A stretch of DNA of 64,000 bases from positions 672,001-736,000 of the forward strand of contig CAWEYL010000001.1 in the NCBI GenBank assembly GCA_963813335.1, read 5' to 3'. Every line of letters begins with the position of its first letter. Within the stretch, counting starts at the first letter, position 1. Source of the DNA: an uncultured Chloroflexia bacterium (GTDB lineage Bacteria; Chloroflexota; Limnocylindria; Limnocylindrales; CSP1-4). This document shows positions 4,055 to 40,889 of the stretch, piece after piece. The position numbers were made by a program, and so were the translations under genes. Below the pieces are notes generated by a model that worked only from the letters and a program-made list of their open reading frames with translations, was not told the DNA's origin and made no database searches.

Positions 4055-4229
4055 GACGGCGGAGCATAGTCGGTGCGCGACCCGGACCATCGTCCCAACG
4101 GCGGGCGCGCGGAGGCTGCGCTACACTTCGGCACGCCTCGGTGCGTCAGAACCCGCGCACCACCCGGTCCGTCCGCGAGCGATCGTCGACCGGCCGGTCG
4201 AACCACCTGCTGGAGTCCCCACCCGGACC

Positions 4230-5564: not shown

Positions 5565-5592
5565 CCAGGCTCGAAGCAGAGGGGACAGACCG

Positions 5593-7479: not shown

Positions 7480-7485
7480 CGAAGA

Positions 7486-7508
7486 CCGGGGTGCCCCCAG
7501 CACCCCGG
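7486..7508 (+). terminator. GC-rich hairpin between the DUF3352-like gene and rpsP
   Basis: CCGGGGTGC-CCCCA-GCACCCCGG inverted repeat; no strong U-tract. Confidence 0.4.
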
Positions 7509-7541
7509 CTTCGGAATGCAACTGGAGGAGATGCACCGATC

Positions 7542-7796
7542 ATGGCAGTCCGCATCCGGCTGACGCGCGTGGGCGCGAAGAAGCAGCCGACCTATCGCGT
7601 CGTCGTCGCCGACGGTCGCAGTGCCCGCGACGGCCGCGCCATCGAGACGCTCGGTCACTACAACCCGCGCTCCGAGCCGGTCGAGTTCCAGGTGGACGAG
7701 GACAAGGCCAAGGCCTGGCTCGCCAAGGGAGCCCAGCCGTCCGAGACGGTCAGCCGACTCTTCCGTCAGGCGGGCATCCTGCCCGCCGCCAAGTAG
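7542..7796 (+). CDS. rpsP: 30S ribosomal protein S16
   Basis: [32 protein letters not shown]; GGAGG upstream. Confidence 0.97.
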
Positions 7797-7805
7797 GGGA
7801 CCGAG

Positions 7806-8039
7806 ATGGCCGCCAAGGACCTGGTCGAATACGTCGCCAAGGCGCTCGTCGACGATCCCGACGCCGTGACCGTCGAGCTCGTGCGCGAGGAAGGCGCCAC
7901 GGTCATCGAGCTGCATGTCGCCGAGGACGACATGGGCAAGGTCATCGGGCGCAACGGCAGCGTCGCGAAGGCGCTGCGCACCCTGCTCAAGGTCACGGCC
8001 GCCCGTGACGGCGAGCCGGTCCAGCTCGAGATCCTCTGA
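7806..8039 (+). CDS. khpA: KH-domain RNA-binding protein KhpA (YlqC)
   Basis: DMGKVIGRNG KH motif; conserved position between rpsP and rimM. Confidence 0.93.
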   Translation: MAAKDLVEYVAKALVDDPDAVTVELVREEGATVIELHVAEDDMGKVIGRNGSVAKALRTLLKVTAARDGEPVQLEIL

Positions 8040-8728
8040 GCGTCGACGAACGGCTCGTGGTCGCCCTCGTCCGAGGGGTCCACGGGCTGCACGGCGCCGT
8101 CCGGGTGGAGGTCCTGACCGACCATCCGGAGACCCGCTTCGTGCCGGGGACCGTGCTCCATCGTGAGGGGCGCGACGAGCCGCTGACGATCGCCTCCGCC
8201 GAGGCGATCGCCGATGGCCCCGGCTGGCGCGTGCGCTTCCGCGAGGTCGGCTCACGCGATGCCGCCGACACCTTGCGTGGCGCCTACCTCGAGGCCGTGG
8301 TCGTGCCCGAGCTGGAGCTCGGGCGGGGCGAGTACTACTGGCACGAGGTCGTCGGCGTGGCCGTGCGCGGCGTCGACGGCGCCGAGCTCGGCACGGTCCG
8401 CGACATCTACCGCGTCGGCGAGAACGACGTCCTGGTCGTCGATGGCGGCACGGTCGCGCCGTTCGACCTGCCCGCGGTGCGGGCGTTCATCCGGGTCTTC
8501 GCGCCTCGCCGCGGCGAGATCGTGGTCGACGCCGAGTCGCTCGACCTGCGCCCGGCCAAGTCGAAGACGCCCGACCCGGACCGCCCGAAGGCGCCGCGGC
8601 GGCGCAGCCGGAAGCCGGCCACGACGGCCCCGCCGGCGACCCCGCCCGGCGACGCCGCGACGGCCACGACGGAGTCGGCCGCGACGGAGCCGGCCGCGGC
8701 CGAGCGGCCCGCACCGTCTCGGCCATGA
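8036..8728 (+). CDS. rimM: 16S rRNA processing protein RimM with low-complexity C-terminal tail
   Basis: VHGLHGAV and EYYWHEVVG motifs; start uncertain (CTG 8036 overlapping the khpA stop, or GTG 8057). Confidence 0.9.
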
Positions 8729-26377: not shown

Positions 26378-26866
26378 ATGACGCAACGCACGAACAAACT
26401 GGATCAGCTCCTGCGGGAAGAGATCGGGTCGATCGTGAGCCGCGATGTCGCGGATCCGCGCGTCGGGTTCGTCACCATCACTAGCGTCGAGACGACGCCG
26501 GACCTGCGGCATGCCAAGGTCTGGGTGAGCGTGATCGGGCAACCGGCGGAGCGGACCGCGGCCATCGCCGCGCTCGGTCGGGCCATGCCGTTCGTCCGCC
26601 GCGAGCTGGGCGTCCGGCTGCGCCTCAAGCGCATCCCGGACCTGCACGTCCACGAGGACGACACGGCGGAGCGGGGGACCCGCGTGCTGCAGCTGCTCAA
26701 CGACCTCGAGCGCGGCGAGGAGCCCGCCGTCGACCTCGCGACCGGCGAATCGCTGCCGACCCCCGTCGCCCGCCTGCCGCACGACGGCGACCTCGGCGAG
26801 GAGCCGCCCTCGGCGGTGCGCCCGCCGGTCCGCCGGAAGCGGTCGACCTCGAAGGCGCGCCGGTGA
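26378..26866 (+). CDS. rbfA: Ribosome-binding factor A
   Basis: DPRVGFVTITSV..TPDLRHAKVWVS, RIPDL; follows infB. Confidence 0.95.
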   Translation: MTQRTNKLDQLLREEIGSIVSRDVADPRVGFVTITSVETTPDLRHAKVWVSVIGQPAERTAAIAALGRAMPFVRRELGVRLRLKRIPDLHVHEDDTAERGTRVLQLLNDLERGEEPAVDLATGESLPTPVARLPHDGDLGEEPPSAVRPPVRRKRSTSKARR

Positions 26867-27882
26867 CCGTCGATCTCTCGCCATATCTGGACGCGGTCCC
26901 GGACATCGTCGTCGAGCGGCTGCGCGCCGCGCGGCGCGTGCTGGCCGTGGGCCACGAGAACCCGGACGCCGACACGCTCGGGGCCAGCCTCGCGATCGTC
27001 CATCTCGTGGAGGCGCTCGGCGGCGCCGCCGACCCGGTCACGTCCGACCCGCCGCCCCCGCTGTACGACTTCCTGACCGGCGTGGACCGCGTCCGCCGTG
27101 ACCCGGACCCGGCCGCCGACTACGACCTCGTCGTGATCTCGGACTGCGGCTCGCTCGAGCGGGTCGGGTCGGTCGGGGTCCGCCATGCGGACCTGTTCGC
27201 GCGGGTGCCGCGCATCGTCATCGACCACCACGCGTCGAACCAGGTCGAGGGAGACGCCGACTGGGTGGACCCCGACGCCGCCGCGACCTGCGAGATGGTG
27301 ACGCTGCTCGCGGTCCGTCTCGGCATCCCGCTCGACATCGACGGCGGGGCCATGGCGACCGCCTTGATGGGTGGCATCGTGATGGATACCGCGACCTTCG
27401 CCCACCCGAACGCCACCCCGCGCACCCTGGCCGTCTCGGCGGCCCTGGTGGCGGCCGGCGCCCCGCTCTCGGACATCTCGAGGCGCCTCTATCGGACCAA
27501 GCCGGACACCCAGCTCCGCCTGTTCGGGCTCGTGCTGGGACGCATGCAGAGCGTGGACGGCGGGCGGATCGTCTGGTCGACCCTCGAGGACGGGGACCTC
27601 GTCGAGACCGGCACCCAGCCGCCGCACTCCGAGGGCATCATCGACCTGCTCGCCCAGGCCGAGGACGCCGAGGTGGCCATCCTGTTCAAGGAGGACGCTC
27701 GCGGCACGCGGCTGAGCGTCCGGACCCGGCCCGGCGGCGTGGACGCGACCGTGCTCACCGGGACGTTCGGCGGGGGAGGGCACGCCCGCGCGGCGGGAGC
27801 CACGCTCGCGATGCCGATCGCCGAGGCGCAGCCGGTCGTCCTGGCCGAGGCGAAGCGGCTCGTGGCCGACGTCCGGCGCTGA
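26863..27882 (+). CDS. nrnA: DHH/DHHA1 nanoRNase / pAp phosphatase
   Basis: HENPDAD, IDHH, DT, GGGGHARAAG. Confidence 0.9.
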   Translation: MTVDLSPYLDAVPDIVVERLRAARRVLAVGHENPDADTLGASLAIVHLVEALGGAADPVTSDPPPPLYDFLTGVDRVRRDPDPAADYDLVVISDCGSLERVGSVGVRHADLFARVPRIVIDHHASNQVEGDADWVDPDAAATCEMVTLLAVRLGIPLDIDGGAMATALMGGIVMDTATFAHPNATPRTLAVSAALVAAGAPLSDISRRLYRTKPDTQLRLFGLVLGRMQSVDGGRIVWSTLEDGDLVETGTQPPHSEGIIDLLAQAEDAEVAILFKEDARGTRLSVRTRPGGVDATVLTGTFGGGGHARAAGATLAMPIAEAQPVVLAEAKRLVADVRR

Positions 27883-29616: not shown

Positions 29617-30135
29617 ATGGCTCGATCGATGGAACTCGCCCAGCTCAACGTCGGCCGCATGCTCGCCCCGCTGGACGCCCCGGAGATCGCGGGGTTCGTG
29701 GCGGAGCTCGAGCCCGTCAACCGACTCGCGGACGCAAGCCCCGGCTTCGTGTGGCGACTCCAGACCGATCAGGGGAACGCGACGGCGATGCGCCCGACCG
29801 ATGACGCCCTGTTCCTCATCAACTTGAGCGTCTGGGCTTCGATCGAGGCCTTGCGCGCCTTCACGTATGACACGGCCCATATGCAGGTCCTGCGGCGGCG
29901 GCGCGAATGGTTCGAGCGGCTCGCGACGGCCCATCTCGTGTTGTGGTGGGTGCCCGTCGGTCACCGGCCGACGATCGAGGAGGCGCTTGCCCGCCTGGAC
30001 CTCTTGCGGCGAGACGGCCCGACCCCGGCGGCGTTCACGTTCCGCACGCCGTTCGAGCCCGATGCGCTGGGGCCCGGCGATCCGCTCGTCGACGCGGAGT
30101 TCTGCTGGCCCGAGTTGGCGACGACCCCGGTCTAG
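29617..30135 (+). CDS. DUF3291 family protein
   Basis: LAQLN...[15 protein letters not shown]...NLSVW...RRREWF...LWWV...GPTPAAFTF. Confidence 0.85.
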
Positions 30136-30695
30136 CCGCCCGGCCGCCAGAGTGGTTCGGCGACGCCGCGCTCGTGGTTCTCGTAGCGCGCCATGACGAA
30201 GAGCGCGTCCGAGAGCCGGTTGAGGTACGCGAGCACGTGCTCGCCGATCGCCTCGTCGCGGCCCAGCCTGACGGCCTCGCGCTCGGCGCGTCGGCAGATG
30301 GTGCGCGCGACGTGCAGGTGCGCGGCGCCCGGCGCGCCGCCCGGCAGGATGAAGTTGGTGAGCGGCCCCACGACCTCGTTGAACTCGTCGATGAGGCGTT
30401 CGAGCTTCTCGACGTGTCGCGGTTCGACGGTCGGGATCCGCGCGCGTCGAGGATCGTCAGATGGCCAGCACAGGTCCGAGCCCAGGTCGAACAGCTCGTT
30501 CTGGATCAACGTCAGCTCGATCGTCAGCCGCTCGCACAGACCAACGGCGATCGTCACGCCGATTTGCGAGTTGAGCTCGTCGACGGTGCCGTACGTGACG
30601 ACCCGCCGGGCGTCCTTGGCGACCCGCTGGCCACCGCCGAGCCCGGTCATCCCCTCGTCGCCGGTCTTCGTGTAGATGCGATCCAGGTTGGGCAT
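30132..30695 (-). CDS. PduO-type cob(I)alamin adenosyltransferase
   Basis: [44 protein letters not shown]. Confidence 0.93.
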
Positions 30696-30757
30696 CGTCG
30701 CGCTCCGTGTGGTGGCAGGCACGACGTAGCGTACCGGTCCGAGGAGGACCTCCGCGC

Positions 30758-31330
30758 TCACGGCATGGCGGCGAGCACCGCCTTGGCCACCGCGACGGCG
30801 TCGTCGGTGCGGTCCGGACTCGACGGGTCGACGATCTCTACGTAGAGCGAGCCTTCGTCGGGCGTCAGCAGGACCGTCAGGTAGACCTCGCCGGGGTCGC
30901 CGCTGTTGAGGTGCTCGGCGTACGCGCCGGCGTCGAACCCTGACACCGTCGGCGCCCCGGTCGGGCGGCCCGTATCGTAGGCCCCGAGCGTGACTTCGAG
31001 CACCTGCGTGCCGTTGCTGATCGTGCAGCGGAACGGCGGGAAGGTCTGGGCCTGTGGTGCTGAGGCGTTCGGGACGATCGCGGCGGCGAGACCCGCCGGG
31101 ATCAGCGGGCAGACCTCGGTGATGGCCTGCGCGGCTGCCAGCACGTCGCCTCCGCCGGCCGCACTGGAGGCGGCCCCGCTGGAGCCGGCCGCGCTGGAGC
31201 CGGCCGCGCTGGAGGCGACGCCATCGGTCGACCCGCCGGCCCCGGTCGCTTCGGGCGCGGTCGACGCTCCGCCGGCGGAACACGCTACGAGTGCGGTCAC
31301 GACGGCCGCCATGCAGACCACCCGCTTCAT
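30758..31330 (-). CDS. Putative lipoprotein
   Basis: MKRVV...LVAC lipobox, Ser/Ala/Gly repeat linker, two Cys in the mature domain. Confidence 0.75.
31155..31216 (-). repeat. 15-nt tandem coding repeat (SSAAG-like, about 4 copies)
   Basis: GGCCGCGCTGGAGCC-like units. Confidence 0.7.
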
Positions 31331-31762: not shown

Positions 31763-34657
31763 TCAGCCGATGGACGGTTCGCTGGCGGCCGCCAGGGCGT
31801 CACGCAGCTGCGATCGCGAACGGATATCGAGCTTCCGGTAGACGGCCGACAGCTGGCTCTCGACGGTCCGGACGGAGACCACGAGTTCCGCTGCGATCTC
31901 GCGATTCGCGTGACCGGCGGCGGCGAGCTCCGCCACGGCGCGCTCGGACGCGGTCAGGCGGATGCCGTCGGAGGTCCGACCGCCGATCCGGCCAAGCTCG
32001 CGGGTCGCCCGGGCGGCCCAGGCGCGTGCGCCGAGCCCATCGAAGGTCGCCAGCGACGCACCGACGTCCGTGCGCGCCGCCCGGCGGTGTCCGGCCCGCC
32101 GCTGGACGGCGCCACGAGCCAGCGATATCCGCGCTCGTTCGAAGGGCATCGGCAGTTCGGCGTCGAACACGCTGAGCGCGTCGCCGAATGACGCCACCGC
32201 ACCGGCGAGATCTCCCCGAGCGGCCAGGAGGAAGCCGCGGCCGCGGGCCGCCATCGCGCGCACCCACGGCAGCGGCAGTCGGGCGCCCGGCTCCTCAAGG
32301 TCCTCGCGCAGCACCCGCTCGGCGAGATCGAGTTCGCCGGCGAGCACCGCCGCCTCGACCAGGTCCCCGAGGAACCGGAACTGCGTCGGCAGGACGACGT
32401 GCATGGCCTCGGCGTGTTCCTGGGCCTGGCGGAGGTAGGCGAGTGCGGCTCCTGGATCGGGGACCGAGAGCTCGATGAATCCGAGCAGTGCGCAGAAGAT
32501 CGCGCTTTCCCAGCGATCGCCCGCGGCTTCCTCGCGGCGGAGCCCGTCGACGGCGATCGCCCGCGCGGCATCGAGGTCGCCTGAATATGCCAGGATCCGG
32601 GCCCTCGCCGTGAGCGCCCGCTGTCGCCACGTCTCCTCGCCCTGTTCGACGAGCTCCAGGCATTCGGCGGCATACCGGCGAGCGGCGTCCCAATCGCCGC
32701 TCATCAGGCAAAGGACGGAGAGCGACTGGTCGAGGGGCGGCAGGAGCCCGACCTGACCCAGCTCGGTGAGTCGGCGATGGTCCGCCTCGTCGAAGGCGAT
32801 GGCCTCCGGCAGCCGGCCGAGATGGAACAGGCACCGCTCGGCCAGCTCCTGGGCGCGCCGAGCGCCGAACGAGGTGCCACCGCCACGCATGAGGGCGATG
32901 CCCCGATCGATGTCGTCCCCCGCCACGCGGTCGCCGGCGAGGAGCCAATGGAACGCTCGGTCGAGCAGGGCGCAGGCGAGCTGGTCGGTGTCGGCTTCCA
33001 AGACCGCCCCTTCGAGGAGGTCGACCGCGGCCATGGCGCTGCGGTAGCCGGTCGGCGGGTCCATGTCGGCCATGCTCGTGATGTGGGCGTGGACGAGGGC
33101 CTCGAAGATCGGATCGCCGTCGGTGTGCTCGAGCGCCTCGAGGAGCTGCGGCAACGCGTCGTTGGGCCGCTCCACGTAGGTGATCTCACCAAGGGCCAGC
33201 AGGGCCTCCCCACGGCGCCGCCCGGCCGGCACGGTCGCGAGCACGGCATGCAGGCCGGCCTCACCGCGTCCCGGGTCGCCGGCGGCCACGGCCGCCTCGG
33301 CCGCCTCGACGAGGAAGCCGCTCCGGTCCGGCTCCACAGCCAGGCTCGCGGCTCGCTCGAGAAGGTCCGCGGCCACGCCGGGCGCGCCGCGGGCACCGGC
33401 GATCCGCGCCGCGCCGGCGAGGGCGGCGGCGACGCCAGCGTCGGGTCGCTCGACGGTCGCCGCGAGGTGGATGGCGCGCTCGACCGGGTCGTCGGCGGCG
33501 GTGGCGAGCGCGCCGCGCAGGGCTCGACGTTCGCCCGGTGGCGCATCTGCGTAGGCCGTCGAGCTGAAGAGCGGATGGGTCGGCCGGATCCGTGACCCGT
33601 CGAGGGTGAGGACGCCGCGCTCGAAGGCCTCGTCGAGTGCCCGGTCGCCGGGCGCGCCGAGCACGCTGCGGATCAGGCTCGGGCTGGGCTCCCCGGACAT
33701 CGCCACGATGACGACGGCACGGCGCGCGTCGCGGCTCAGCGTCGCGAGGTGGTCGCGCACGAGCGGACCCGCTTCGGGAGGCACGGGGAACGGTTCGCCC
33801 GGCGCGGGATCGAGACCCCGCCCCTTGAGCGAGCGGCTGATCTCGAGGCCGAGGAACGGGTTGCCCGAACACGCTTCGTGGAGCCGGGCGAGCAGCGGCC
33901 TGGGATGGGCCACGTCGAGGCGTTCGTGGATGAGCCGGCCGAGGGCGCCCACCGACAACGGGCCGACGACGATCCGCGTCCGGTGCTCGACGGCGGTATC
34001 CAGTGAGGCGATCGGCGCGAGGGTCGCGGACAGGTCTCGTCGGTCCGGCGGCCGTTCCGGCGACGCGTAGTCACCGGGTGTCGTCTCGTCCTGGTCGGCC
34101 TGGACCGGTCCGGTGCGTCGCGCGAGGACGACCGCGACCGGCTCGGACCTGAGCCGCCGTACCGCGAAGGCGAGCGCGTCCTGGCTGGCCCGATCGGCCC
34201 ACTGGATGTCGTCGATCGCCAGGACGAGTGGGCGATCGCGAGCGAGGTCCCGCAGGACGTCGGCGACGGCGAGGCCCACGAGCGACGGGTCCGAGTGGGT
34301 GCCGAGCGACGCACCTCGGCCCATGGCCGCCGAGATGGCCGCCCGCCGGGGGCTGTTCAGCAGCTCGATCGCGGCCTCGGCGGCAGGGTCGTCGAGGAGG
34401 GCGGTAAGGGTGGCGAACGCCAGGTCGCGCTCGGCGATGCTGGCGCGCCAGGCGAGGACGCGGTCCGCGCGCGTCCGGGCGACGGCGACGGCATGGAACC
34501 AGAGAGTGGTCTTGCCGATGCCGGCTTCGCCTTCGATGAGCAGGCAGGACGGCCGCGCCTCCTCGAGCCATCGCGCGATCGCCGATCGCTCCGCTTCCCG
34601 CCCGACGACGATCGTCCCCGGCATCACGACGTTCGCCAGATCCGGTGCATCGACCAC
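31763..34657 (-). CDS. Large AAA-ATPase/LuxR-HTH transcriptional regulator (MalT/LAL-like)
   Basis: VVGREAE, Walker [22 protein letters not shown]-terminal LTASE...[15 protein letters not shown]; start uncertain (34657 or 34625). Confidence 0.9.
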
Positions 34658-34763
34658 GCCTCCGCGCCGATGGTACCGAAGCCGCGTCAGTATCTTTCGG
34701 TGGTCGCACGGATGCGATGACCCGACGGTTTCGGGCGACGCACGATCGTCGAGCGGCCCGCGT

Positions 34764-34792
34764 TTGCCGCAACCGGCCGAGCCTGCTACCAT
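34764..34792 (+). promoter_or_regulatory. Sigma70-type promoter of rpsO-pnp
   Basis: TTGCCG-17 nt-TACCAT with an extended TG. Confidence 0.65.
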
Positions 34793-34845
34793 CCGCCGGT
34801 CATAGATCGGAAAGAAACAGCACATCGCCGTGTTCGGAGGAACGA

Positions 34846-35115
34846 GTGCCGCTCGCGCGGGAATTGAAGCAAGAGATCATCACCGGGTATGCCACCACTG
34901 AAGGTGACACCGGTTCGCCGGAAGTCCAGATCGCGCTCCTGACCGAGCGGATCAAGGACCTGACCGGGCATCTCCGAAGCTTTCCCAAGGACAATCATTC
35001 GCGCCGCGGCCTCCTCAAGCTCGTCGGCCAGCGCCGCCGCCTTCTCGCGTACCTGATGAAGAAGGACAGCGCGCGCTACCGCGTCGTCATCGGACGACTC
35101 GGACTCCGCCGCTAG
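34846..35115 (+). CDS. rpsO: 30S ribosomal protein S15
   Basis: [33 protein letters not shown]; GGAGG before the GTG. Confidence 0.97.
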
Positions 35116-35151: not shown

Positions 35152-35235
35152 TCTCGCGTTCGACGCCAGATGGCCGAGTCGGCCGACCTGCCGCAGGTCG
35201 CCAGCCTCCTCCACGGTCAAGGAGGATCGATTCCC

Positions 35236-37818
35236 TTGTCTCACACGTTCGAGACGCAGATCGGTGGTCGCACGCTGACCATCGAGACCGGCAAGCTCGC
35301 GCGCCTCGCCGGCGGCGCCGTCACCGTCCGCTACGGTGACACCCTGGTGCTCGGCACCGCCAACCGCTCGGATCCCCGCCCGGGCCTCGACTTCTTCCCG
35401 CTCACGGTCGAGTTCGAGGAGCGCATGTACGCCGCGGGCAAGATCCCGGGCGGCTTCATCAAGCGCGAGGCGCGCGCGTCGGAGGCGGCCACCCTGGCCG
35501 CCCGCCTGACCGACCGCCCCATCCGCCCGCTCTTCCCCGAGGGCTACAAGGACGACATCCAGCTCGTCATCACCGTGCTCTCGACCGACCAGGAGAACGA
35601 GCCCGACGTGCTCGGCACGACGGCCGCCTCGGCCGCGCTGAGCATCAGCGAGATCCCGTTCGCGGGACCTGTCGGCGCCGTCCGCGTCGGCCGCATCAAC
35701 GGCGAGTTCGTGGTCAACCCCACCTACAGCGAGCTCGCCGAGTCGGAGCTGGACCTGATCGTCTCCGGTACCCGCGACGCGATCATGATGGTCGAGGCGG
35801 GCGCCAAGCTCCTGCCCGAGGACGTGATGGCCGAGGCCATCCTGTTCGGCCATCGCGCGCTGCAGCCGCTCATCGATATCCAGGAAGAGCTCCGCGCGGC
35901 CGTCGGCAAGGCGAAGAGCACCCCGTACCTCGAGCCGGGCACCGGCTCGGTGCTCGACTACACGAAGGCCGTCGCCGCGGGCGATACGTTCGTCGTGGTC
36001 GACGTCGAGACCACCGGCACGGACCCGAAGATGGCCGACCTCGTCGAGATCGCCGCGGTGAAGGTCCAGGGCGGCAAGATCGTCGACCGCTGGTCGACGC
36101 TCGTGAACCCGGGCCGGCCGATCCTCGGCCACCAGATGCACGGCATCACCGACGCGGACGTCAAGAAGGCCCCCAAGCCGGCCGACGCCGCGAAGGACGC
36201 CCTCAAGTTCATCGGCGACTCGCTGGTCGTGGGGCACTCGGTCGGGTTCGACCTCGGCTTCATCGAGGCCGCGCTCGGCGACGGGACGCACTTCGAGCAG
36301 GGCCGCTACCTCGACACCCTGGTCCTCGCCCGCGAGGGCTACCCGGACCTCGAGAACTACAAGCTCGGGACGCTGTCGAACTTCTTCGGTATCGAGCTCG
36401 CCCAGTCGCACCGGGCCGGCCCCGACGCCGAGGCGACCGCCAACCTGCTGATCTGGTTCGGGAACGACCTGCCGGGCCGCATCGCGGCCCTCAAGGCGGG
36501 GATCGCGGATTCGGTCCGGGCCAACCGGACCGGCGGCGACCCGAAGGCGATCCTCGAGGCCGCCCGCCGCGAGGCCCGCGTCTCGAAGGGCCTCTACAAC
36601 CTGCTCTTCAAGAAGACCTGCCGCGAGCTGGCCCTCGACGAGGGCATCCGGATGGACGGCCGCGGCCTGACGGAGCTCCGCCAGATCTCGGTCGAGGTGG
36701 GCCTCCTCCCGCGGGCGCACGGCTCCGGCCTCTTCACCCGCGGCGAGACCCAGGTCATGACGATCGCGACGCTCGGCGCGTCCTCGGACGTGCAGCGCAT
36801 CGACACGATCAGCCCCAAGACCGAGAAGCGCTACATCCACCACTACAACTTCCCGCCCTATTCGACGGGTGAGAACAAGCCGATGCGCGGCCCCAGCCGG
36901 CGCGACATCGGGCACGGCAACCTCGCCGAGCGGGCGCTCGTCCCGGTCCTCCCGGACCACGACGAGTTCCCGTACGTCATCCGCCTCGTGTCGGAGTGCA
37001 TGTCGTCCAACGGCAGCACCTCGATGGCCTCGACCTGCGGCTCCACCCTCGCCCTCATGGACGCGGGCGTGCCGATCAAGGCACCGGTCGCCGGTGCGGC
37101 GATGGGCCTCATCAGCGAGCCGGACGGCCGCTTCGTCGTCCTGACCGACATCCTCGGCAAGGAGGACTCGGTGGGTGACATGGACTTCAAGGTGACCGGC
37201 ACGCGGGACGGCATCACCGCCCTGCAGATGGACATCAAGGTCCAGGGCATCAACGAGGCGATCATCCGCAACGGCCTCAAGCAGGCCCTCGCGGCGCGCC
37301 TCGAGATCCTCGACAAGATGACCTCGGTCATGCCCGAGGCCCGTGTGGAGATGAGCGACTTCGCGCCGCGCATCATCACCATCAAGATCAACCCGGAGAA
37401 GATCCGCGAGATCATCGGCAAGGGCGGATCGATGATCCGCAAGATCCAGGAAGAGACCCAGACCGAGATCAACGTCGAGGACGACGGCACCGTGGAGATC
37501 GCGGCCGTCTCCGGCGAGAACTCGCGCAAGGCGATCGACTGGATCAACAGCCTGACCCGTGAGGTCGAGGTGGGCGCGCTCTACATGGGCAAGGTCACCC
37601 GCATCATGGGCTTCGGCGCCTTCGTCGAGATCATGCCCGGCAAGGAAGGCCTGGTCCGCATCGGCGAGCTCGCCGACTACCACGTTCCCACCGTCGAGGA
37701 CGTCGTGTCCGTCGGCGACGAGATCATGGTCGTCGTGATGGAGATCGACCGCCAGGGCCGCGTCAACCTCTCCCGCCGCGCCGCGATGCAGCGCCACCTG
37801 GCGAAGGATCCCGCCTAG
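35236..37818 (+). CDS. pnp: Polynucleotide phosphorylase with an in-frame inserted DEDDh exonuclease domain
   Basis: PH1 (DFFPLTV, GKIPGGF.KRE, DRPIRPLF), DEDDh insert, PH2 (RGETQ, HYNFPP, SNGSTSMAS, GDMDFK), KH (IIGKGG) and S1; TTG start after AAGGAGG. Confidence 0.96.
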   Translation: MSHTFETQIGGRTLTIETGKLARLAGGAVTVRYGDTLVLGTANRSDPRPGLDFFPLTVEFEERMYAAGKIPGGFIKREARASEAATLAARLTDRPIRPLFPEGYKDDIQLVITVLSTDQENEPDVLGTTAASAALSISEIPFAGPVGAVRVGRINGEFVVNPTYSELAESELDLIVSGTRDAIMMVEAGAKLLPEDVMAEAILFGHRALQPLIDIQEELRAAVGKAKSTPYLEPGTGSVLDYTKAVAAGDTFVVVDVETTGTDPKMADLVEIAAVKVQGGKIVDRWSTLVNPGRPILGHQMHGITDADVKKAPKPADAAKDALKFIGDSLVVGHSVGFDLGFIEAALGDGTHFEQGRYLDTLVLAREGYPDLENYKLGTLSNFFGIELAQSHRAGPDAEATANLLIWFGNDLPGRIAALKAGIADSVRANRTGGDPKAILEAARREARVSKGLYNLLFKKTCRELALDEGIRMDGRGLTELRQISVEVGLLPRAHGSGLFTRGETQVMTIATLGASSDVQRIDTISPKTEKRYIHHYNFPPYSTGENKPMRGPSRRDIGHGNLAERALVPVLPDHDEFPYVIRLVSECMSSNGSTSMASTCGSTLALMDAGVPIKAPVAGAAMGLISEPDGRFVVLTDILGKEDSVGDMDFKVTGTRDGITALQMDIKVQGINEAIIRNGLKQALAARLEILDKMTSVMPEARVEMSDFAPRIITIKINPEKIREIIGKGGSMIRKIQEETQTEINVEDDGTVEIAAVSGENSRKAIDWINSLTREVEVGALYMGKVTRIMGFGAFVEIMPGKEGLVRIGELADYHVPTVEDVVSVGDEIMVVVMEIDRQGRVNLSRRAAMQRHLAKDPA

Positions 37819-37934: not shown

Positions 37935-40889
37935 GTGCTCCCCCGGCTCCGGGCGGACCATCCGCGGGGTGACCGAGTGACCGAGCGATCACGCGGGATC
38001 GTGAGTTCGCGTCTCAGTCCGGTCATGGTCGGGCGAGACGCATTCGTCGACCAGGCCGAGCACCTCCTCGGGAGTGTCCTCGCCGGTGACGGCCGCTTCC
38101 TGCTCCTCGCGGGCGAGGCTGGCATCGGCAAGACACGCCTGGTCGATGCGATCGAGCGGCAGGCTGCCGCGATGGGCTTCCGCCACATCCGCGGCCAGTC
38201 GTTCCTGGAGGATCGGGAGGTACCGGGGGCGCCGTTCCTCGACCTGGCCGGTGCGATGTCCCGCGACGCGGGATTCGCCGGCACGGGCGCTGACCTGGCG
38301 GCCCACCTCCGGCTGATCGAGGCGGACGAGGACCTCACCGGCCCGCGTCGTCGTCGTCAGCTCGTCCTCGACGTCGTCGACGTGCTCGTGTCGGTCGCAC
38401 CGCCGCCTACCGTGATCGCCATCGAGAACCTGACGGACGCCGATGAGCTGAGTCTTGAGATCCTCGCCCGCCTCGCGCGGCAACTCCCCGGTCGCCCGCT
38501 CCTGGTCGTCGGCACCTATCGAAGCGACGAACTCTATCCGCGCGTCCCGCTGCGCGATTGGCGGGCGAGGCTCCTCACTGGTCGTCTCGTCGAGGAGATC
38601 CAACTCGGGCGGCTGTCGCGCGCGGAGACCGCCCAGATGACCAGCGTGATCCTCGACCAGGCTGCGGCCCCCTCGAGCGACATGCTCGACGCGGTGTACG
38701 AGCGGACCGACGGCATCCCGTTACACGTGGAGGAGTTGCTCGGGGTCATCCTCGAACAGCATCGTGCCGACCACGATGCCGTCCTGGCCGCAGACGTCCC
38801 GGACACGCTCGACGAGGTCGCACGACAGCGCATCGACGCCCTGTCGGTCGACGCCCAGCGCCTCGTCCGGGCCGCGTCCGTCATCGGGCACGACTTCGAC
38901 CTCGATCTCCTGGCCGCGCTGGTACGGTCGACGGTCGACGAGGTCTGGCCAGCCGTCGCCGAGCTGCTCGACCAATTCATCCTCATCTCGGCCGGCGCGC
39001 AGGACCGCTATGGGTTCCGCCACGCATTGATCCGGGACGCCATCTACCAGGAGGTTCCCGTCCCGGACAAGGTGCGGCTCCATCGCCTCGTCGCAGAGCT
39101 GCTCGACGAACGAGGCGATGCGTCCGATGCCTTCCTGTCACATCACTACGAACAGGCTGGCGTGCGCGAGGAGGCATTCCACGCCGCCATGCGCGGAGCC
39201 AGGGCCGCCGCGGCGATCTCGTCCCACCGTGCGGCGTTCGCGCTCTATCAACGTGCCCGTCGTCAGCTGCCGAATGACCTGCCGCTGCCAGAACAGGCGG
39301 CGATCCACGCCGCCCTCGCCGCCGAGGCGGCGGCGAGCGATGACAACGCGGTGTCGTCGGAGGCCTATGCCGCGGCGCGCGAGCGATACGTCGACGCGGG
39401 CGCGATCCTCGAAGCGGCGAGCTTGATCAGCCCGATGGTCGCGGTCCGACACCTCCTCGGCGACAGCCTCGATGTTCGGCTCGAGATGCTCCGCCAGGCG
39501 ATCGCCGACGTGGAAGAGCTGCCGTCCGACGTCGAGACGACGCGCGTCCGGGGGCGTCTGCTCGCCAGTCTGGCCAACACCCACATGTACGACCTCCGCG
39601 TCGTGGAGGCTCGGCGGTACGCGGAGGAAGCTCGGGCGCTTGCGGATGGGGCCGCTGACGCCGCGACCGGCCTCGATGCGCGAATCACCATCGCGAATGC
39701 GCTGTTGTTCGAAGGGCGGGTCGGCGAAGGAACGGAGTTGGGATGGTCCACCATCCGTGACGCTCGTTCGGCCCAGCTCGAGGTCGAGGCCTCGCGCTGC
39801 TATCGGATGCTTGGCTCGTCATCCTCGGAGGTCGTCGAATACGAGCGCGGCGAGCGGCTCTTCCGTGAGGGGATCGAATACGCGGAACGAGTCGAGCGCT
39901 GGAACGACCGCCACTACATGGCTGCCCACCTCGGACTCATCCTGTGGGCGACCGGTCGCTGGCGCGAGGGCTGGGACCTCGCCGAGCGGGCCCTCGTCGA
40001 TGGACGGCCGGGCATCACCACGCGGATCACGGCGTCGTATGTCCTCGGGTACATCGCCATGGGGCGGGGCGACTGGGAGCGGGCCAGGCAGCTGCTGCAG
40101 GGATCGCTGGAACTCGGCGAGCCGATGGGCGAGATCCTGCGGACCTCGCTGGCACGCTGGGGTCTCGCAGAGACCGCGCTGCTGACCGGCGATGCACGAG
40201 CGGCCCTCGAGCTCGCACGACGAGGCCGCGCGGCGTCAGAGGCCGTCGGGGATGCCGCGCTCCTGTTTCCGTTCCTCGTGACCGGGACACGGGCTCACCT
40301 TGCCGTCGCGGATCCGGCCGGTGCCGAACGATGGGTCGATGAGCTTGAGAGCGAACTCCGTCGGACAGCCATCTCGGGCACGCTCCCGGCGATCGACCAT
40401 GCCCGAGGGCTGGTCCTGGCGGCGGCGGGCGCGACGACCCTGGCGCGAGAGGCGCTCGAGGTCGCGGTTCGCGGATGGGACACGGCAGGTCGCGTCTGGG
40501 AGGGGACCTGGGTCAAGCTCGACCTCGCGTCCGTCCTGTTCCGGATCAACCGGGTCGCCGCCGCGGTCGCATTGGTGGAGGATGTCCGCTCCATCGGTGA
40601 CCGCCTGGGCAGCCGCCCGCTGGTCGAGCGGGCGTCGGAGTTGCTGCGCGCGACCCGAGCGCGCCGGGGCGCCGAGGAGCCGTGGCGTCCCCTGACGGCT
40701 CGGGAGTTCGAGGTCGCCAAGCTGATCGTCGCGGGGCGGACGAACGCCGAGATCGCCGTCGAGCTGGACATCTCCCCGAGAACGGCGAGCTCCCACGTCG
40801 AGCACATCCTCACCAAGCTCGGCGTCGCGCGCCGTACCGAGATCGCGGTCTGGGCGTCGGCCGTGTTGCGGCAGGACGGAGGACCGTGA
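37935..40889 (+). CDS. Large AAA-ATPase/TPR-like/LuxR-HTH transcriptional regulator
   Basis: [40 protein letters not shown]-terminal LTAREFEVA...HVEHILTKLG; TATCCT 6 nt before the GTG. Confidence 0.9.
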   Translation: MLPRLRADHPRGDRVTERSRGIVSSRLSPVMVGRDAFVDQAEHLLGSVLAGDGRFLLLAGEAGIGKTRLVDAIERQAAAMGFRHIRGQSFLEDREVPGAPFLDLAGAMSRDAGFAGTGADLAAHLRLIEADEDLTGPRRRRQLVLDVVDVLVSVAPPPTVIAIENLTDADELSLEILARLARQLPGRPLLVVGTYRSDELYPRVPLRDWRARLLTGRLVEEIQLGRLSRAETAQMTSVILDQAAAPSSDMLDAVYERTDGIPLHVEELLGVILEQHRADHDAVLAADVPDTLDEVARQRIDALSVDAQRLVRAASVIGHDFDLDLLAALVRSTVDEVWPAVAELLDQFILISAGAQDRYGFRHALIRDAIYQEVPVPDKVRLHRLVAELLDERGDASDAFLSHHYEQAGVREEAFHAAMRGARAAAAISSHRAAFALYQRARRQLPNDLPLPEQAAIHAALAAEAAASDDNAVSSEAYAAARERYVDAGAILEAASLISPMVAVRHLLGDSLDVRLEMLRQAIADVEELPSDVETTRVRGRLLASLANTHMYDLRVVEARRYAEEARALADGAADAATGLDARITIANALLFEGRVGEGTELGWSTIRDARSAQLEVEASRCYRMLGSSSSEVVEYERGERLFREGIEYAERVERWNDRHYMAAHLGLILWATGRWREGWDLAERALVDGRPGITTRITASYVLGYIAMGRGDWERARQLLQGSLELGEPMGEILRTSLARWGLAETALLTGDARAALELARRGRAASEAVGDAALLFPFLVTGTRAHLAVADPAGAERWVDELESELRRTAISGTLPAIDHARGLVLAAAGATTLAREALEVAVRGWDTAGRVWEGTWVKLDLASVLFRINRVAAAVALVEDVRSIGDRLGSRPLVERASELLRATRARRGAEEPWRPLTAREFEVAKLIVAGRTNAEIAVELDISPRTASSHVEHILTKLGVARRTEIAVWASAVLRQDGGP

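What the first reader, a model, noticed from the sequence alone, without database searches (positions are those of the whole stretch)
35983..36456. PNPase with a built-in DEDDh (DnaQ-like) exonuclease domain: candidate dual phosphorolytic/hydrolytic nuclease
Seen: between RNase PH1 and PH2, where PNPase normally has only an alpha-helical domain, there is an in-frame insert of about 155 aa. It carries ExoI VVDVETTG (D 36001, E 36007), LVEIAAV, HGIT, ExoII GHSVGFD (D 36250), LDTL and ExoIII SHRAGPDA (H 36409, D 36424). All four acidic residues and the His are present. The PNPase motifs (SNGSTSMAS, EDSVGDMDFK), KH and S1 are also intact. Codon style matches the rest of the gene, and the gene is in the canonical rpsO-pnp position. 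Known: PNPase is a trimeric phosphorolytic 3'-5' RNase with a very conserved PH1-helical-PH2-KH-S1 layout, with the helical domain on the face opposite KH/S1. DEDDh domains (Pol III epsilon, RNase T, Orn) are hydrolytic 3'-5' nucleases. Inference: three DEDDh heads may sit on the exit face to finish short oligos, trim structured ends or act on ssDNA, loosely like Rrp6/Rrp44 on the eukaryotic exosome core. I know of no description of this fusion.
Basis: partly seen in the sequence, partly recalled or inferred. Interest (0 to 1): 0.9.

Follow-up and report, generated by a model that had tools for sequence, protein, structure and literature searches.

The report
PNPase with built-in DEDDh exonuclease
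The only polynucleotide phosphorylase of this uncultured Chloroflexota bacterium carries a complete, conserved DnaQ-type 3'-5' exonuclease domain inside its helical linker, an apparently undescribed two-active-site form of a normally invariant RNA-decay enzyme.

Summary
The pnp gene (35236..37818, downstream of rpsO) encodes an 860-aa PNPase. A full-length DEDDh domain (PF00929, 35992..36450) replaces about the first two-thirds of the helical domain between PH1 and PH2.

It is not an artefact. The same architecture occurs in three families of one Chloroflexota class, labelled mostly Candidatus Limnocylindria (f1 91/91, f2 12/12, f4 99/103 genomes). Contigs from independent DNA and RNA-library runs bridge both junctions. 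It is the sole PNPase in 6 of 6 genomes checked.

D-E-D-H-D and the PH2 catalytic motifs are invariant in 57 of 57 sequences. The insert and core trees agree on one ancient insertion.

The domain is of the DinG/PolC/GIY-YIG-linked proofreader type, not Orn or RNase T. Sister families f3/f5 have an ordinary PNPase and carry their DEDDh on an exo-DinG helicase (PF13307 22/22). Fusion families have almost none (4/178).

My reading is a dual phosphorolytic/hydrolytic 3'-5' exonuclease in which PNPase replaced DinG as carrier of the nuclease head. Activity and substrate are inferred, not shown. Eight literature searches found no description. Interest is high.

The parts
34846..35115 (+). rpsO (ribosomal protein S15), directly upstream of pnp
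   Evidence: Pfam Ribosomal_S15, E 2.4e-34; sequence read
35219..35225 (+). Shine-Dalgarno AAGGAGG, 10 nt before the TTG start
   Evidence: Sequence read directly
35236..37818 (+). pnp CDS, 860 aa plus stop (the ORF runs from 35140, but the start is TTG 35236)
   Evidence: Homologues are 860 aa and begin at the aligned L/M-S-H/Q-T-F-E. TIGR03591 936.5 bits, cut-off 525
35266..35859 (+). First RNase PH module (RNase_PH + RNase_PH_C)
   Evidence: PF01138 at G000:C1:707266-707658 = window 35266-35658; RNase_PH_C at ORF residues 176-240
35860..35991 (+). First helix of the helical domain plus a new linker (ORF residues 241-284)
   Evidence: Alignment with ordinary PNPases; helices 210-223 and 237-248 in the model
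35992..36450 (+). DEDDh (DnaQ-type) 3'-5' exonuclease domain, ORF residues 285-437
   Evidence: PF00929 1-164/164, E 6.5e-26; TIGR00573 above its cut-off; PDB 2p1j E 7.7e-25; pLDDT block means 86-97
36001..36009 (+). ExoI motif D288-x-E290
   Evidence: Both residues invariant in 57/57
36250..36252 (+). ExoII aspartate D371
   Evidence: Invariant in 57/57
36409..36426 (+). ExoIII motif H424-x4-D429
   Evidence: Both residues invariant in 57/57
36451..36672 (+). Post-domain helices: the extension of the ExoIII helix, two more helices, and the retained last helix of the PNPase helical domain (ORF residues 438-511)
   Evidence: Model helices 394-432, 436-447 and 451-469 in 860-aa numbering. PF03726 positions 56/57-81 matched weakly in fusion homologues
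36673..37329 (+). Second RNase PH module, carrying the phosphorolytic active site
   Evidence: PF01138 at ORF residues 512-645
37006..37032 (+). Motif S623-NGSTSMAS-S631, which I recall as the PH2 phosphate-binding motif
   Evidence: N624 to S631 invariant in 57/57; S623 in 54/57. The functional label is recalled, not from a call
37165..37191 (+). Motif D676...D680-M-D682-F-K684, which I recall as the PH2 metal-binding motif
   Evidence: D676, D680, D682 and K684 invariant in 57/57. The functional label is recalled, not from a call
37375..37548 (+). KH domain
   Evidence: PF00013 at ORF residues 746-803
37564..37779 (+). S1 domain
   Evidence: PF00575 at ORF residues 809-880

Best explanation
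This is the cell's only PNPase. It has been rebuilt into an enzyme with two kinds of 3'-5' exonuclease centre.

Shown:
- A complete DnaQ-type DEDDh domain replaces about the first two-thirds of the helical linker between PH1 and PH2.
- It was acquired once, in the common ancestor of three families of a Chloroflexota class (Limnocylindria-like), and has since diverged together with the host gene.
- Its five catalytic residues and the PH2 phosphorolytic motifs are invariant.

Inferred:
- The protein still forms the PNPase trimer. KH/S1 capture single-stranded 3' ends on one face, and the PH2 sites degrade them with phosphate to NDPs.
- Three Mg2+-dependent DEDDh heads on the opposite face hydrolyse 3' ends to NMPs without phosphate.

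Most likely role (inferred, about 45%): the head is the same kind of dual RNase/DNase nuclease that other Chloroflexota, including the sister families, carry on a DinG helicase. In this lineage PNPase replaced the helicase as its carrier. On this reading the enzyme trims 3' ends that phosphorolysis handles poorly: unprocessed or structured rRNA, the RNA strand of R-loops, and ssDNA tails.

My sub-odds: real clade-wide fusion above 0.97; catalytically active head about 0.8; take-over of the exo-DinG job about 0.45.
For: Architecture:
- (TIGR03591 936.5 bits; PF00929 over the full profile; TIGR00573 85.1 bits, cut-off 71.5).

Not an artefact or a paralogue:
- All 120 listed homologues carry PF00929 + PF01138.
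- Class scan: f1 91/91, f2 12/12, f4 99/103.
- Contigs of 2 DNA and 2 RNA-library runs bridge both junctions, with no joint that skips the insert.
- There are exactly three RNase_PH matches (two in pnp, one RNase PH) in 6 of 6 genomes.

Selection:
- D288, E290, D371, H424 and D429 are 57/57, while the domain is only 39-46% identical between families.
- dN/dS of the domain is 0.41 / 0.09 / 0.195 in f1 / f2 / f4.

Single origin:
- Inserts form one clade (96/90*), split f4 | f1+f2.
- The PNPase-core tree without the insert columns needs one change. The fusion clade has SH-aLRT 98, and f3+f5 lie outside.

Kind of head:
- Best NCBIfam matches are the DEDD-exonuclease family PRK07883, DinG and PolC.
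- Best PDB matches are PolC exonuclease 2p1j and 9qpc, then DinG 8zef.
- The nearest outside relatives I checked are RNase_T+DEAD_2+Helicase_C_2 and RNase_T+GIY-YIG(+UVR).

Swap with DinG:
- f3/f5 have an ordinary PNPase and a DEDDh in a DinG-length frame in 5 of 5. It was their only PF00929 match.
- PF13307: f3 21/21, f5 1/1, against f1 2/117, f2 0/9, f4 2/52.
- Exactly one PF00929 match in f1 88/117, f4 47/52, f3 16/21, f5 1/1 (my count of the rows).

Literature (passages or abstract read):
- Listeria DinG is a dual 3'-5' RNase/DNase that removes unprocessed rRNA (PMC12774634).
- B. subtilis PNPase degrades R-loop RNA (PMC13251995, abstract).

Geometry:
- The helical domain lies opposite S1/KH and lines a pore to the active site (PMC2723993).
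- The model has pLDDT 81.3 and pTM 0.75, with head block means of 86-97.
Against: - There are no biochemical data of any kind. Activity, metal and substrate are inferred.
- The DinG/PNPase complementarity rests on what is probably one gain and one loss on the same branch. Related genomes are not independent, so it is suggestive and not statistical.
- The donor is unresolved. The backbone of the DEDDh tree is a polytomy, and the AU tests reject neither a clade with the f3/f5 DinG heads (p 0.161) nor one with the GIY-YIG-linked heads (p 0.185).
- To the window's insert, the f3/f5 DinG heads are weaker matches (45-71 bits) than DinG or GIY-YIG heads from other classes (82-109 bits).
- Exceptions: G086 (f1) has a long frame with a sub-threshold partial RNase_T match ahead of a Helicase_C_2. 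By my count of the rows, 6 of 9 f2 and 29 of 117 f1 genomes have further PF00929 matches.
- B. subtilis DinG does not cut linear ssRNA with Mg2+ (PMC12525004), so RNase activity of such a head is not guaranteed.
- RNB is missing from the whole class, f3/f5 included (1/201), so loss of RNase R does not explain the fusion.
- In f1 the head evolves faster than the core (dN/dS 0.41 vs 0.16-0.20).
- The position of the heads relative to the channel could not be measured.
Confidence: 0.6

Rival explanations
1. Oligo finisher. The heads act like oligoribonuclease and hydrolyse the 2-5-nt limit products that PNPase releases, so decay goes to mononucleotides on one machine.
For: - The heads lie next to the pore through which the helical domain is thought to control traffic to the PH2 site (PMC2723993).
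- No Orn or RNase T-type protein and no PF01612 domain were found in the window's genome.
- The insert is the only PF00929 match in most f1 and f4 genomes.
Against: - The domain is of the DinG/PolC/GIY-YIG-linked type. No Orn or RNase T is among the 11 PDB matches or the best 25 NCBIfam matches.
- An NrnA-like DHH+DHHA1 protein sits in the same nusA-infB-truB-rpsO-pnp cluster, and a second DHH protein exists elsewhere.
- Sister families manage without the insert while also lacking Orn-type proteins.
Confidence: 0.13
2. Exosome-like threading. RNA captured by KH/S1 passes through the PH ring. When phosphate is scarce or the RNA is structured, its 3' end reaches the hydrolytic heads on the exit face, as in Exo9-Rrp44.
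For: - The heads are on the face opposite KH/S1.
- The isolated head segment is predicted to self-associate head-to-tail. ipSAE was 0.71 against a best of 3 controls of 0.02. That mark was reached by 20 of 30 proteins solved as pairs of one chain and by 1 of 23 solved as single chains. The runs agree in at least 85% of contacts, and partner pLDDT is at least 85.
- The class lacks RNase R/II.
Against: - The PH2 sites are intact (57/57), so a 3' end would meet them first.
- The published view is that the side pore is unlikely to conduct RNA (PMC2723993).
- The complex job used three copies and my own alignment, unlike the tool's calibration. It lacked the PH ring, and in the best run it did not close the ring: copy 1 shows only surface A and copy 2 only surface B.
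- Interface residues are barely more conserved than the rest of the head (0.69 vs 0.63).
Confidence: 0.12
3. DNA-only role. The head works on ssDNA 3' ends in repair or recombination and uses PNPase only as a DNA-end-binding platform. RNA decay by the enzyme is unchanged.
For: - The closest relatives of the head sit on DNA-repair proteins: DinG helicase, GIY-YIG/UVR, PolC.
- B. subtilis PNPase acts on ssDNA ends in repair (PMC2709576 and PMC3241651, seen only in the search listing).
- B. subtilis DinG prefers ssDNA (PMC12525004).
Against: [quoted passage not shown]
- The gene remains in the rpsO-pnp translation and RNA cluster.
- Nothing here separates DNA from RNA substrates.
Confidence: 0.1
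4. Non-catalytic module. The DEDDh fold serves only as a structural replacement of the helical domain, or as a binding or regulatory module.
For: - The domain and its linkers evolve faster than the PNPase core in f1.
- The helical domain it replaces is itself thought to be regulatory.
Against: All five catalytic residues are invariant in 57/57 sequences at 39-46% overall domain identity, as are H334, H366 and D392. That pattern is not expected of a dead domain.
Confidence: 0.04
5. Assembly or binning artefact that joins a dnaQ-like gene to pnp.
For: None found. All sources are metagenome-assembled genomes.
Against: - The same in-frame architecture occurs in hundreds of independent assemblies.
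- Short contigs of four independent runs bridge both junctions.
- The insert tree and the core tree are congruent.
Confidence: 0.01

Closest known systems
Canonical bacterial PNPase (for example E. coli 7ogl/3gcm, C. crescentus 4aim, S. antibioticus 1e3h)
   Same: - PH1, PH2, KH and S1 in the same order, and the rpsO-pnp locus.
- PH2 catalytic motifs intact.
- TIGR03591 scores far above its cut-off, and the best Foldseek matches are all PNPases (E 1.7e-72 and below).
   Different: - About 125 aa longer.
- About the first two-thirds of the helical domain (PF03726) is replaced by a linker, a complete DEDDh nuclease and new helices.
- None of the listed solved PNPase chains is longer than 730 residues.
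Exo-DinG (N-terminal DEDDh + DinG/XPD helicase) of Bacillota and Chloroflexota (S. aureus 8zef; B. subtilis; Listeria)
   Same: - The same subtype of DEDDh head: NF005981 134.6 bits, 8zef E 2.6e-18.
- A nuclease head mounted on a protein that binds single-stranded nucleic acid.
- Published substrates (rRNA precursors, R-loop RNA, ssDNA) overlap with those of PNPase.
- Mutually exclusive with the fusion across the class, with few exceptions.
   Different: - No helicase domain here: PF13307 was not found in the window's genome or in 5 other fusion genomes.
- The carrier is a phosphorolytic trimeric ring, and the head is internal rather than N-terminal.
- Descent of the insert from a DinG head is not shown.
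PolC exonuclease domain (T. maritima 2p1j; 9qpc)
   Same: - Best sequence match among solved structures (E 7.7e-25).
- Also a DEDDh domain inserted inside another domain of a larger enzyme (that it sits within the PHP domain is recalled, not from a call).
   Different: The host is a templated DNA polymerase and the role is proofreading. PNPase has no template, so proofreading is not a sensible role.
Eukaryotic RNA exosome (Exo9 with Rrp44 and the DEDD nuclease Rrp6)
   Same: A PH-domain ring with an S1/KH cap, combined with hydrolytic nucleases. This is a resemblance in how it may work (recalled knowledge; PMC2807030 seen only in the listing).
   Different: - In the exosome the PH sites are dead and the nucleases are separate subunits.
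- Here the PH2 sites are intact and the nuclease is covalently built in, three per ring.
- There is no homology of arrangement; it is convergent at most.
Caulobacter degradosome, which recruits PNPase and the DEDD nuclease RNase D to RNase E
   Same: A phosphorolytic and a DEDD hydrolytic 3'-5' exonuclease brought together in one assembly (PMC4245959, seen only as title and start of abstract).
   Different: The association is non-covalent, through RNase E. RNase D is of the DEDDy/PF01612 type, which was not found in the window's genome.
Other DEDDh fusions: DEDDh-GIY-YIG(-UVR) (PRK07883, Cho-like) and Cas2-DEDDh (8fy9)
   Same: The same head subtype: NF005906 is the best NCBIfam match (153.3 bits) and 8fy9 scores E 3.5e-11. 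This shows that the head is a mobile module reused on different carriers.
   Different: Different partners. None is an RNA-decay enzyme.

Membership tests
PNPase (TIGR03591 / PRK11824) | Whole-protein score above the curated equivalog cut-off | tested here: met
   TIGR03591 936.5 bits (cut-off 525.05); NF008805 934.2 bits (cut-off 471)
PNPase (TIGR03591 / PRK11824) | Two RNase PH modules followed by KH and S1 | tested here: met
   PF01138 x2, PF03725 x2, PF00013, PF00575
PNPase (TIGR03591 / PRK11824) | Intact PH2 catalytic motifs (their phosphate- and metal-binding roles are recalled, not from a call) | tested here: met
   N624-S631, D676, D680, D682 and K684 invariant in 57/57
PNPase (TIGR03591 / PRK11824) | All-helical linker domain (PF03726) between PH1 and PH2 | tested here: not met
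   No PF03726 hit at E <= 0.01 in the window's protein. In fusion homologues only profile positions 56/57-81 match, at 19.5-21.7 bits (cut-off 24.6). Ordinary f3/f5 PNPases score 37-46 bits over the full length
PNPase (TIGR03591 / PRK11824) | Homotrimeric ring | not testable with these tools
   Three full-length copies exceed the size limit of the complex tool. Only the head segment was folded as three copies
DEDDh / DnaQ-like exonuclease (PF00929, TIGR00573) | Full-length match above the curated cut-offs | tested here: met
   PF00929 92.3 bits (cut-off 24), profile 1-164/164; TIGR00573 85.1 bits (cut-off 71.5) for the insert alone
DEDDh / DnaQ-like exonuclease (PF00929, TIGR00573) | ExoI D-x-E, ExoII D, ExoIII H-x4-D | tested here: met
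   D288, E290, D371, H424 and D429 present and invariant in 57/57
DEDDh / DnaQ-like exonuclease (PF00929, TIGR00573) | Metal-dependent 3'-5' exonuclease activity | not testable with these tools
   Needs purified protein
DNA polymerase III epsilon subunit (dnaQ proper, TIGR01406 / PRK05711) | Equivalog score above the cut-off | tested here: not met
   TIGR01406 72.3 bits (cut-off 222.7); NF004316 63.9 bits (cut-off 196)
Exo-DinG (NF005981 / TIGR01407) | DEDDh head joined to a DinG/XPD helicase (DEAD_2, Helicase_C_2) | tested here: not met
   NF005981 134.6 bits (cut-off 789). There is no helicase domain in the protein and no PF13307 in the genome
Oligoribonuclease / RNase T | Closest similarity to Orn or RNase T families or structures | tested here: not met
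   None among the 11 PDB sequences at E <= 1e-3 or the best 25 NCBIfam families

The most novel reading that the evidence does not exclude
The enzyme is a single-polypeptide bacterial counterpart of the eukaryotic exosome. An active phosphorolytic PH ring is crowned, on the face opposite KH/S1, by three hydrolytic DEDDh heads. The heads touch head-to-tail, so that a conserved basic patch of one (R476, R477) lies against the ExoI loops of the next and forms composite substrate sites. 3' ends can be handed between phosphorolysis and hydrolysis.

Its origin, by moving (or replacing) the nuclease head of DinG onto PNPase, would be a natural 'Rosetta stone'. It would say that exo-DinG and PNPase work in one pathway: quality control of rRNA precursors and removal of R-loop RNA.
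Probability: 0.2. Interest if true: 0.9.

Novelty: new variant of a known kind. Interest (0 to 1): 0.78.

Why it matters
PNPase has one of the most conserved domain layouts among RNA-decay enzymes, from bacteria to plastids and mitochondria. A natural form with a second, hydrolytic active site built into the ring would be unexpected. It is fixed as the only PNPase in a widespread class of soil, wetland and freshwater bacteria.

- **A natural experiment.** It shows what a phosphate-independent nuclease adds to a phosphorolytic machine, in cells that lack RNase R/II.
- **A link between two proteins.** The near-perfect either/or pattern with exo-DinG ties together two proteins that recent work, on separate lines, places on the same substrates (unprocessed rRNA and R-loop RNA). 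That turns the open question of what the DinG nuclease head is for into something testable by complementation and mutant assays.
- **A compact dual-mode enzyme.** It may be of practical use as a single-protein 3'-5' exonuclease.

Tried and rejected
- **Assembly artefact or chimera:** rejected.
- **Paralogue beside a normal pnp:** rejected. There are only three RNase_PH matches per genome, two of them in the fusion, in 6 of 6 genomes.
- **The fusion compensates for loss of RNase R/II:** rejected as a specific cause. RNB is missing from the whole class, including families without the fusion (1/201).
- **A His-to-Ser/Ala change beside the PH2 metal site goes with the fusion:** rejected. f5 and one outgroup also have Ala.
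- **Decaying inserts in some lineages.** The low-identity junction-spanning representatives (P0154, P0157, P0196, P0200, P0130, P0133) are frameshifted gene calls, with in-frame stretches alternating with Arg/Pro-rich ones. They are not degenerate domains.
- **Similarity of exo-DinG P0231 beyond the DEDDh domain** (an FKKT-R...DxR stretch): weak, and it falls in a segment that ordinary PNPases also have, so I treat it as chance.
- **Independent fusions elsewhere.** None was seen among the best 150 of 31,230 hits of the exhaustive search, nor in 5 of 5 outside genomes checked. The other 49 outside genomes with E between 1.9e-31 and 1e-25 were not checked one by one.
- **Donor of the insert:** unresolved.
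- **Geometry of the heads.** No coordinates are given to scripts, so distances between active sites could not be measured.
- **Expression.** RNA-library contigs cover the gene. The tool warns that DNA can be present in such libraries, so I do not count this as proof of transcription.
- **dN/dS.** The values come from a simple Nei-Gojobori script on high-GC genes with large dS. Only the comparison between regions should be used.
- **Rows dropped.**
  - DEDDh tree: 22 of the 57 fusion sequences were used, chosen for spread. small_L040 was dropped (partial weak match). L041 gave no match at E <= 1e-3.
  - Core tree: L191 and L022 gave no qualifying frame.
  - L020-L023: only 4 of the 5 ordinary f3/f5 PNPases entered the first alignment.
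- **Exceptions in the class scan.**
  - One f3 genome (G259, 79% complete, 6% contamination) has a strong match on a contig on which the match ends at base 892, probably foreign.
  - Two f4 genomes (G162, G240) have only weak matches, and 4 of 103 have none.
  - Of the four fusion-family genomes with PF13307, three were examined. G677 and G279 have no exonuclease head. G086 has a sub-threshold partial one. G036, a 107-aa frame at a contig edge, was not examined.
- **Unpublished genomes.** G087, G096, G249, G296, G159, G123, G106, G091, G112, G067 and G151 enter only the tallies. No sequence was taken from them.
- **Supplements.** Supplementary files of papers were not consulted, so a mention of this architecture in a supplementary table cannot be excluded.

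Full report
**Observation.**
Pfam finds, in order:
- RNase_PH and RNase_PH_C;
- RNase_T/PF00929 at ORF residues 285-437, covering the whole profile (1-164/164, E 6.5e-26);
- a second RNase_PH and RNase_PH_C;
- KH and S1.

The real start is the TTG at 35236, ten bases behind AAGGAGG. This gives the 860 aa seen in homologues. S15 (rpsO) ends at 35115. GC content in the insert (0.69-0.70) is like the rest of the gene. Residue numbers below are ORF numbers from 35140; subtract 32 for the 860-aa protein.

**Anatomy.**
Ordinary PNPases of the sister families are 734-737 aa from the aligned start, so the net gain is about 125 aa.
- The alignment and the model show that the first helix of the helical domain is kept.
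- A short new linker follows, then the DEDDh domain.
- The ExoIII helix of the domain runs on as a 39-residue helix (860-numbering 394-432) into two more helices and PH2.
- PF03726, the PNPase helical-domain family, matches over its full length in ordinary f3/f5 PNPases (37-46 bits). In 2 of the 3 further fusion proteins scanned it matches only at its last ~25 positions and below the cut-off. In the third (f2) and in the window's protein it was not found.

So the module replaced about the first two-thirds of the helical domain.

**Not an artefact and not a paralogue.**
- A word-indexed search found 1974 proteins at E <= 1e-3 among 8000 candidates. All 120 listed carry PF00929 and PF01138, and most are 860-863 aa.
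- In a sample of 301 genomes of the window's class, the insert query matched f1 91/91, f2 12/12 and f4 99/103, in PNPase-length frames.
- Families f3 (87/92) and f5 (2/2) gave only weak matches, with one probable contaminant.
- In 401 genomes of the phylum, f1 23/23, f2 4/4 and f4 16/16 scored E <= 1.1e-38. Nothing outside the class was better than 1.9e-31.
- Five of those outside genomes have an ordinary PNPase, with the DEDDh match on another contig.
- An exhaustive HMMER search of 1.84 billion representatives gave 31,230 hits at E <= 1e-3, 77 of them at E <= 1e-30. Among the best 150, the hits that span both junctions all belong to this family. The low-identity ones are frameshifted gene calls.
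- Short contigs from two DNA and two RNA-library runs bridge both junctions, and no joint skips the insert.
- The fusion is the only PNPase: there are three RNase_PH matches per genome, two of them in the fusion frame, in 6 of 6 genomes.
- All 80 named relatives are metagenome-assembled genomes. Most are labelled Chloroflexota, 'uncultured Chloroflexia', or Candidatus Limnocylindrales/Limnocylindria, and a few carry other labels. No cultured organism appears among the 80.

**Selection.**
I took 56 further full-length genes from f1, f2 and f4. Together with the window's gene they give 57 distinct sequences.
- D288, E290, D371, H424 and D429 are invariant in 57/57. So are H334, H366 and D392.
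- The PH2 motifs are also invariant in 57/57: N624-S631, D676, D680, D682 and K684.
- The DEDDh domain as a whole is only 39-46% identical between f4 and f1 or f2, against 73-76% for PH2.
- A simple Nei-Gojobori estimate gives dN/dS for the domain of 0.41 (f1), 0.09 (f2) and 0.195 (f4). The core regions give 0.16-0.20, 0.02-0.05 and 0.15-0.17.

The domain is under purifying selection, looser than the core in f1 and f2.

**History.**
- A tree of 48 DEDDh domains puts all 22 PNPase inserts in one clade (96/90*), split into f4 (100/100) and f1+f2 (98/93).
- A tree of the PNPase core with the helical and insert columns removed (65 rows) needs a single change of state. The 57 fusion PNPases form a clade (SH-aLRT 98), again split into f4 (99) and f1+f2 (100). 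f3+f5 (98) and four outgroups lie outside.

There was one insertion, in the ancestor of f1+f2+f4, followed by vertical descent.

**What kind of head.**
- The insert passes the DnaQ-family domain model (TIGR00573, 85.1 bits, cut-off 71.5). It fails every full-length equivalog.
- Its best NCBIfam matches are the DEDD-exonuclease family PRK07883 (153.3 bits), DinG (134.6 bits) and PolC (131.3 bits).
- The best solved relatives are the PolC exonuclease domains 2p1j and 9qpc, then DinG 8zef. Cas2-DEDDh, ExoX and epsilon follow. Orn and RNase T do not appear.
- Four of the nearest outside relatives were fetched whole. Two are RNase_T+DEAD_2+Helicase_C_2 (exo-DinG) and two are RNase_T+GIY-YIG, one of them with UVR.
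- The donor is not resolved. The backbone of the tree is a polytomy, and AU tests reject neither a clade with the f3/f5 DinG heads (p 0.161) nor one with the GIY-YIG-linked heads (p 0.185).

**The swap with DinG.**
- In five f3/f5 genomes PNPase is ordinary, and the single PF00929 match lies in an 890-1041-aa frame. That frame also holds Helicase_C_2 (coordinates; sequence).
- Among 201 genomes (all but G000 at least 90% complete), PF13307 is found in f3 21/21 and f5 1/1, but in only f1 2/117, f2 0/9 and f4 2/52.
- Three of those four exceptions were examined. Two have no nuclease head, and one (G086) has a sub-threshold partial one.
- By my count of the rows, exactly one PF00929 match is present in f1 88/117, f4 47/52, f3 16/21, f5 1/1 and f2 3/9.

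So most genomes of the class hold one DEDDh domain. It sits either on DinG or inside PNPase. This is one evolutionary event, not many, so the link is suggestive only.

Other nucleases:
- RNB is missing throughout the class (1/201).
- The window's genome has no PF01612.
- It does have two DHH proteins. One is an NrnA-like DHH+DHHA1 gene at 26863..27882, in the nusA-infB-truB-rpsO-pnp cluster.

**Structure.**
- AlphaFold2 on a 41-row alignment gives mean pLDDT 81.3 and pTM 0.75, with ten-residue block means of 86-97 in the head.
- Foldseek finds only ordinary PNPases. None of those listed is longer than 730 residues.
- Published structures place the helical domain on the face of the torus opposite S1/KH. 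There it lines a pore thought to pass phosphate and NDPs, not RNA (PMC2723993, passages read).

The head segment (860-numbering 209-472) was folded as three copies and passed the tool's mark:
- ipSAE was 0.71 and the best of 3 controls was 0.02.
- The mark was reached by 20 of 30 proteins solved as pairs of one chain and by 1 of 23 solved as single chains.
- The runs agree in at least 85% of contacts, and partner pLDDT is at least 85.
- The job used my own alignment and three copies, unlike the calibration.
- The contact is head-to-tail. ORF residues 401-405, 414-417 and 476-480 of one copy lie against 292-299 and 326-333 of the next, beside the ExoI motif.
- The ring was not closed in the best run, and the PH ring was absent from the job.
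- The interface is hardly more conserved than the rest of the head (0.69 vs 0.63), though P402, Q332, R476 and R477 are nearly invariant.

**Mechanism.**
I commit to a dual-mode 3'-5' exonuclease.
- *Shown:* two intact, selected catalytic centres of different chemistry in the cell's only PNPase.
- *Inferred from established knowledge of the two families:* phosphorolysis to NDPs in PH2, and metal-dependent hydrolysis to NMPs in the heads.
- *Inferred from the swap and from recent papers:* PNPase became the carrier of a DinG-type dual RNase/DNase head, and the combined enzyme deals with 3' ends that phosphorolysis handles badly.

The papers behind the last point:
- Listeria DinG removes unprocessed rRNA and is compared by its authors to RNase R (PMC12774634, passages).
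- B. subtilis DinG degrades ssDNA and the RNA of hybrids (PMC12525004, passages).
- B. subtilis PNPase degrades R-loop RNA (PMC13251995, abstract).

The rivals (oligo finishing, exosome-like threading, a DNA-only role, a dead structural domain) are weighed in their own sections.

**Novelty.**
Eight full-text searches found no paper that describes this architecture:
- PNPase with DEDD and fusion;
- with 'exonuclease domain' and Chloroflexi;
- with DnaQ;
- with Limnocylindria;
- with 'domain architecture', RNase T and insertion;
- with DinG;
- with 'helical domain', inserted and 'nuclease domain'.

Source annotations call these proteins by turns 'polyribonucleotide nucleotidyltransferase', 'DNA polymerase III epsilon subunit family exonuclease' or 'exonuclease domain-containing protein'. 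The sequences are public, but the fusion seems unremarked. Subscription journals and supplements were not searchable. I file it as a new variant of a known kind.

**Limits.**
- All evidence is computational.
- The genomes are metagenome bins; the window's own is 81% complete.
- Family tallies include eleven unpublished genomes, from which no sequence was taken.

Noticed in passing
window 31763..34825 (-) and 37935..40889 (+): Two large (1020 and 984 aa) AAA_16 + GerE/LuxR-type regulators flank the rpsO-pnp pair in divergent orientation. They interrupt the otherwise canonical nusA-infB-nrnA-truB ... rpsO-pnp cluster.
   Followed up: no
window 26863..27882 (+): An NrnA-like DHH + DHHA1 protein (339 aa) lies between infB and truB. 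It is a candidate nanoRNase and bears on the oligo-finishing idea.
   Followed up: partly
whole class (genome search): The class as sampled has no RNB (RNase R/II) domain (1 of 201 genomes). Most genomes have a single DEDDh domain and no free-standing DnaQ. If so, replicative proofreading must rest on something else, for example the PHP domain of DnaE (not tested).
   Followed up: partly
L193 (G086:C10:17000-25500), frame 2166-8288 (+): A 2041-aa stop-to-stop frame in one f1 genome holds, in order: a sub-threshold partial RNase_T match, ResIII/AAA, Helicase_C_2, then DEAD + Helicase_C (Cas3-like C-terminus). It may be a divergent exo-DinG-like gene, or two fused helicase genes, and it coexists with the PNPase fusion.
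   Followed up: partly
P0159 (1045 aa): A protein with three tandem RNase_T (DEDDh) domains followed by GIY-YIG and UVR. It is another unusual elaboration of the same head subtype.
   Followed up: no
window 29907..30845 (+): A 312-aa ORF between truB and the upstream regulator has no Pfam match at E <= 1e-5. It may not be a real gene in this high-GC sequence.
   Followed up: no
P0231 residues 205-240 against window ORF residues ~487-520: An exo-DinG protein shows a short FKKT-R...D-x-R resemblance to the last helix and PH2 entry of the fusion, just after its DEDDh domain. I judge it to be chance, because ordinary PNPases have that segment too.
   Followed up: partly
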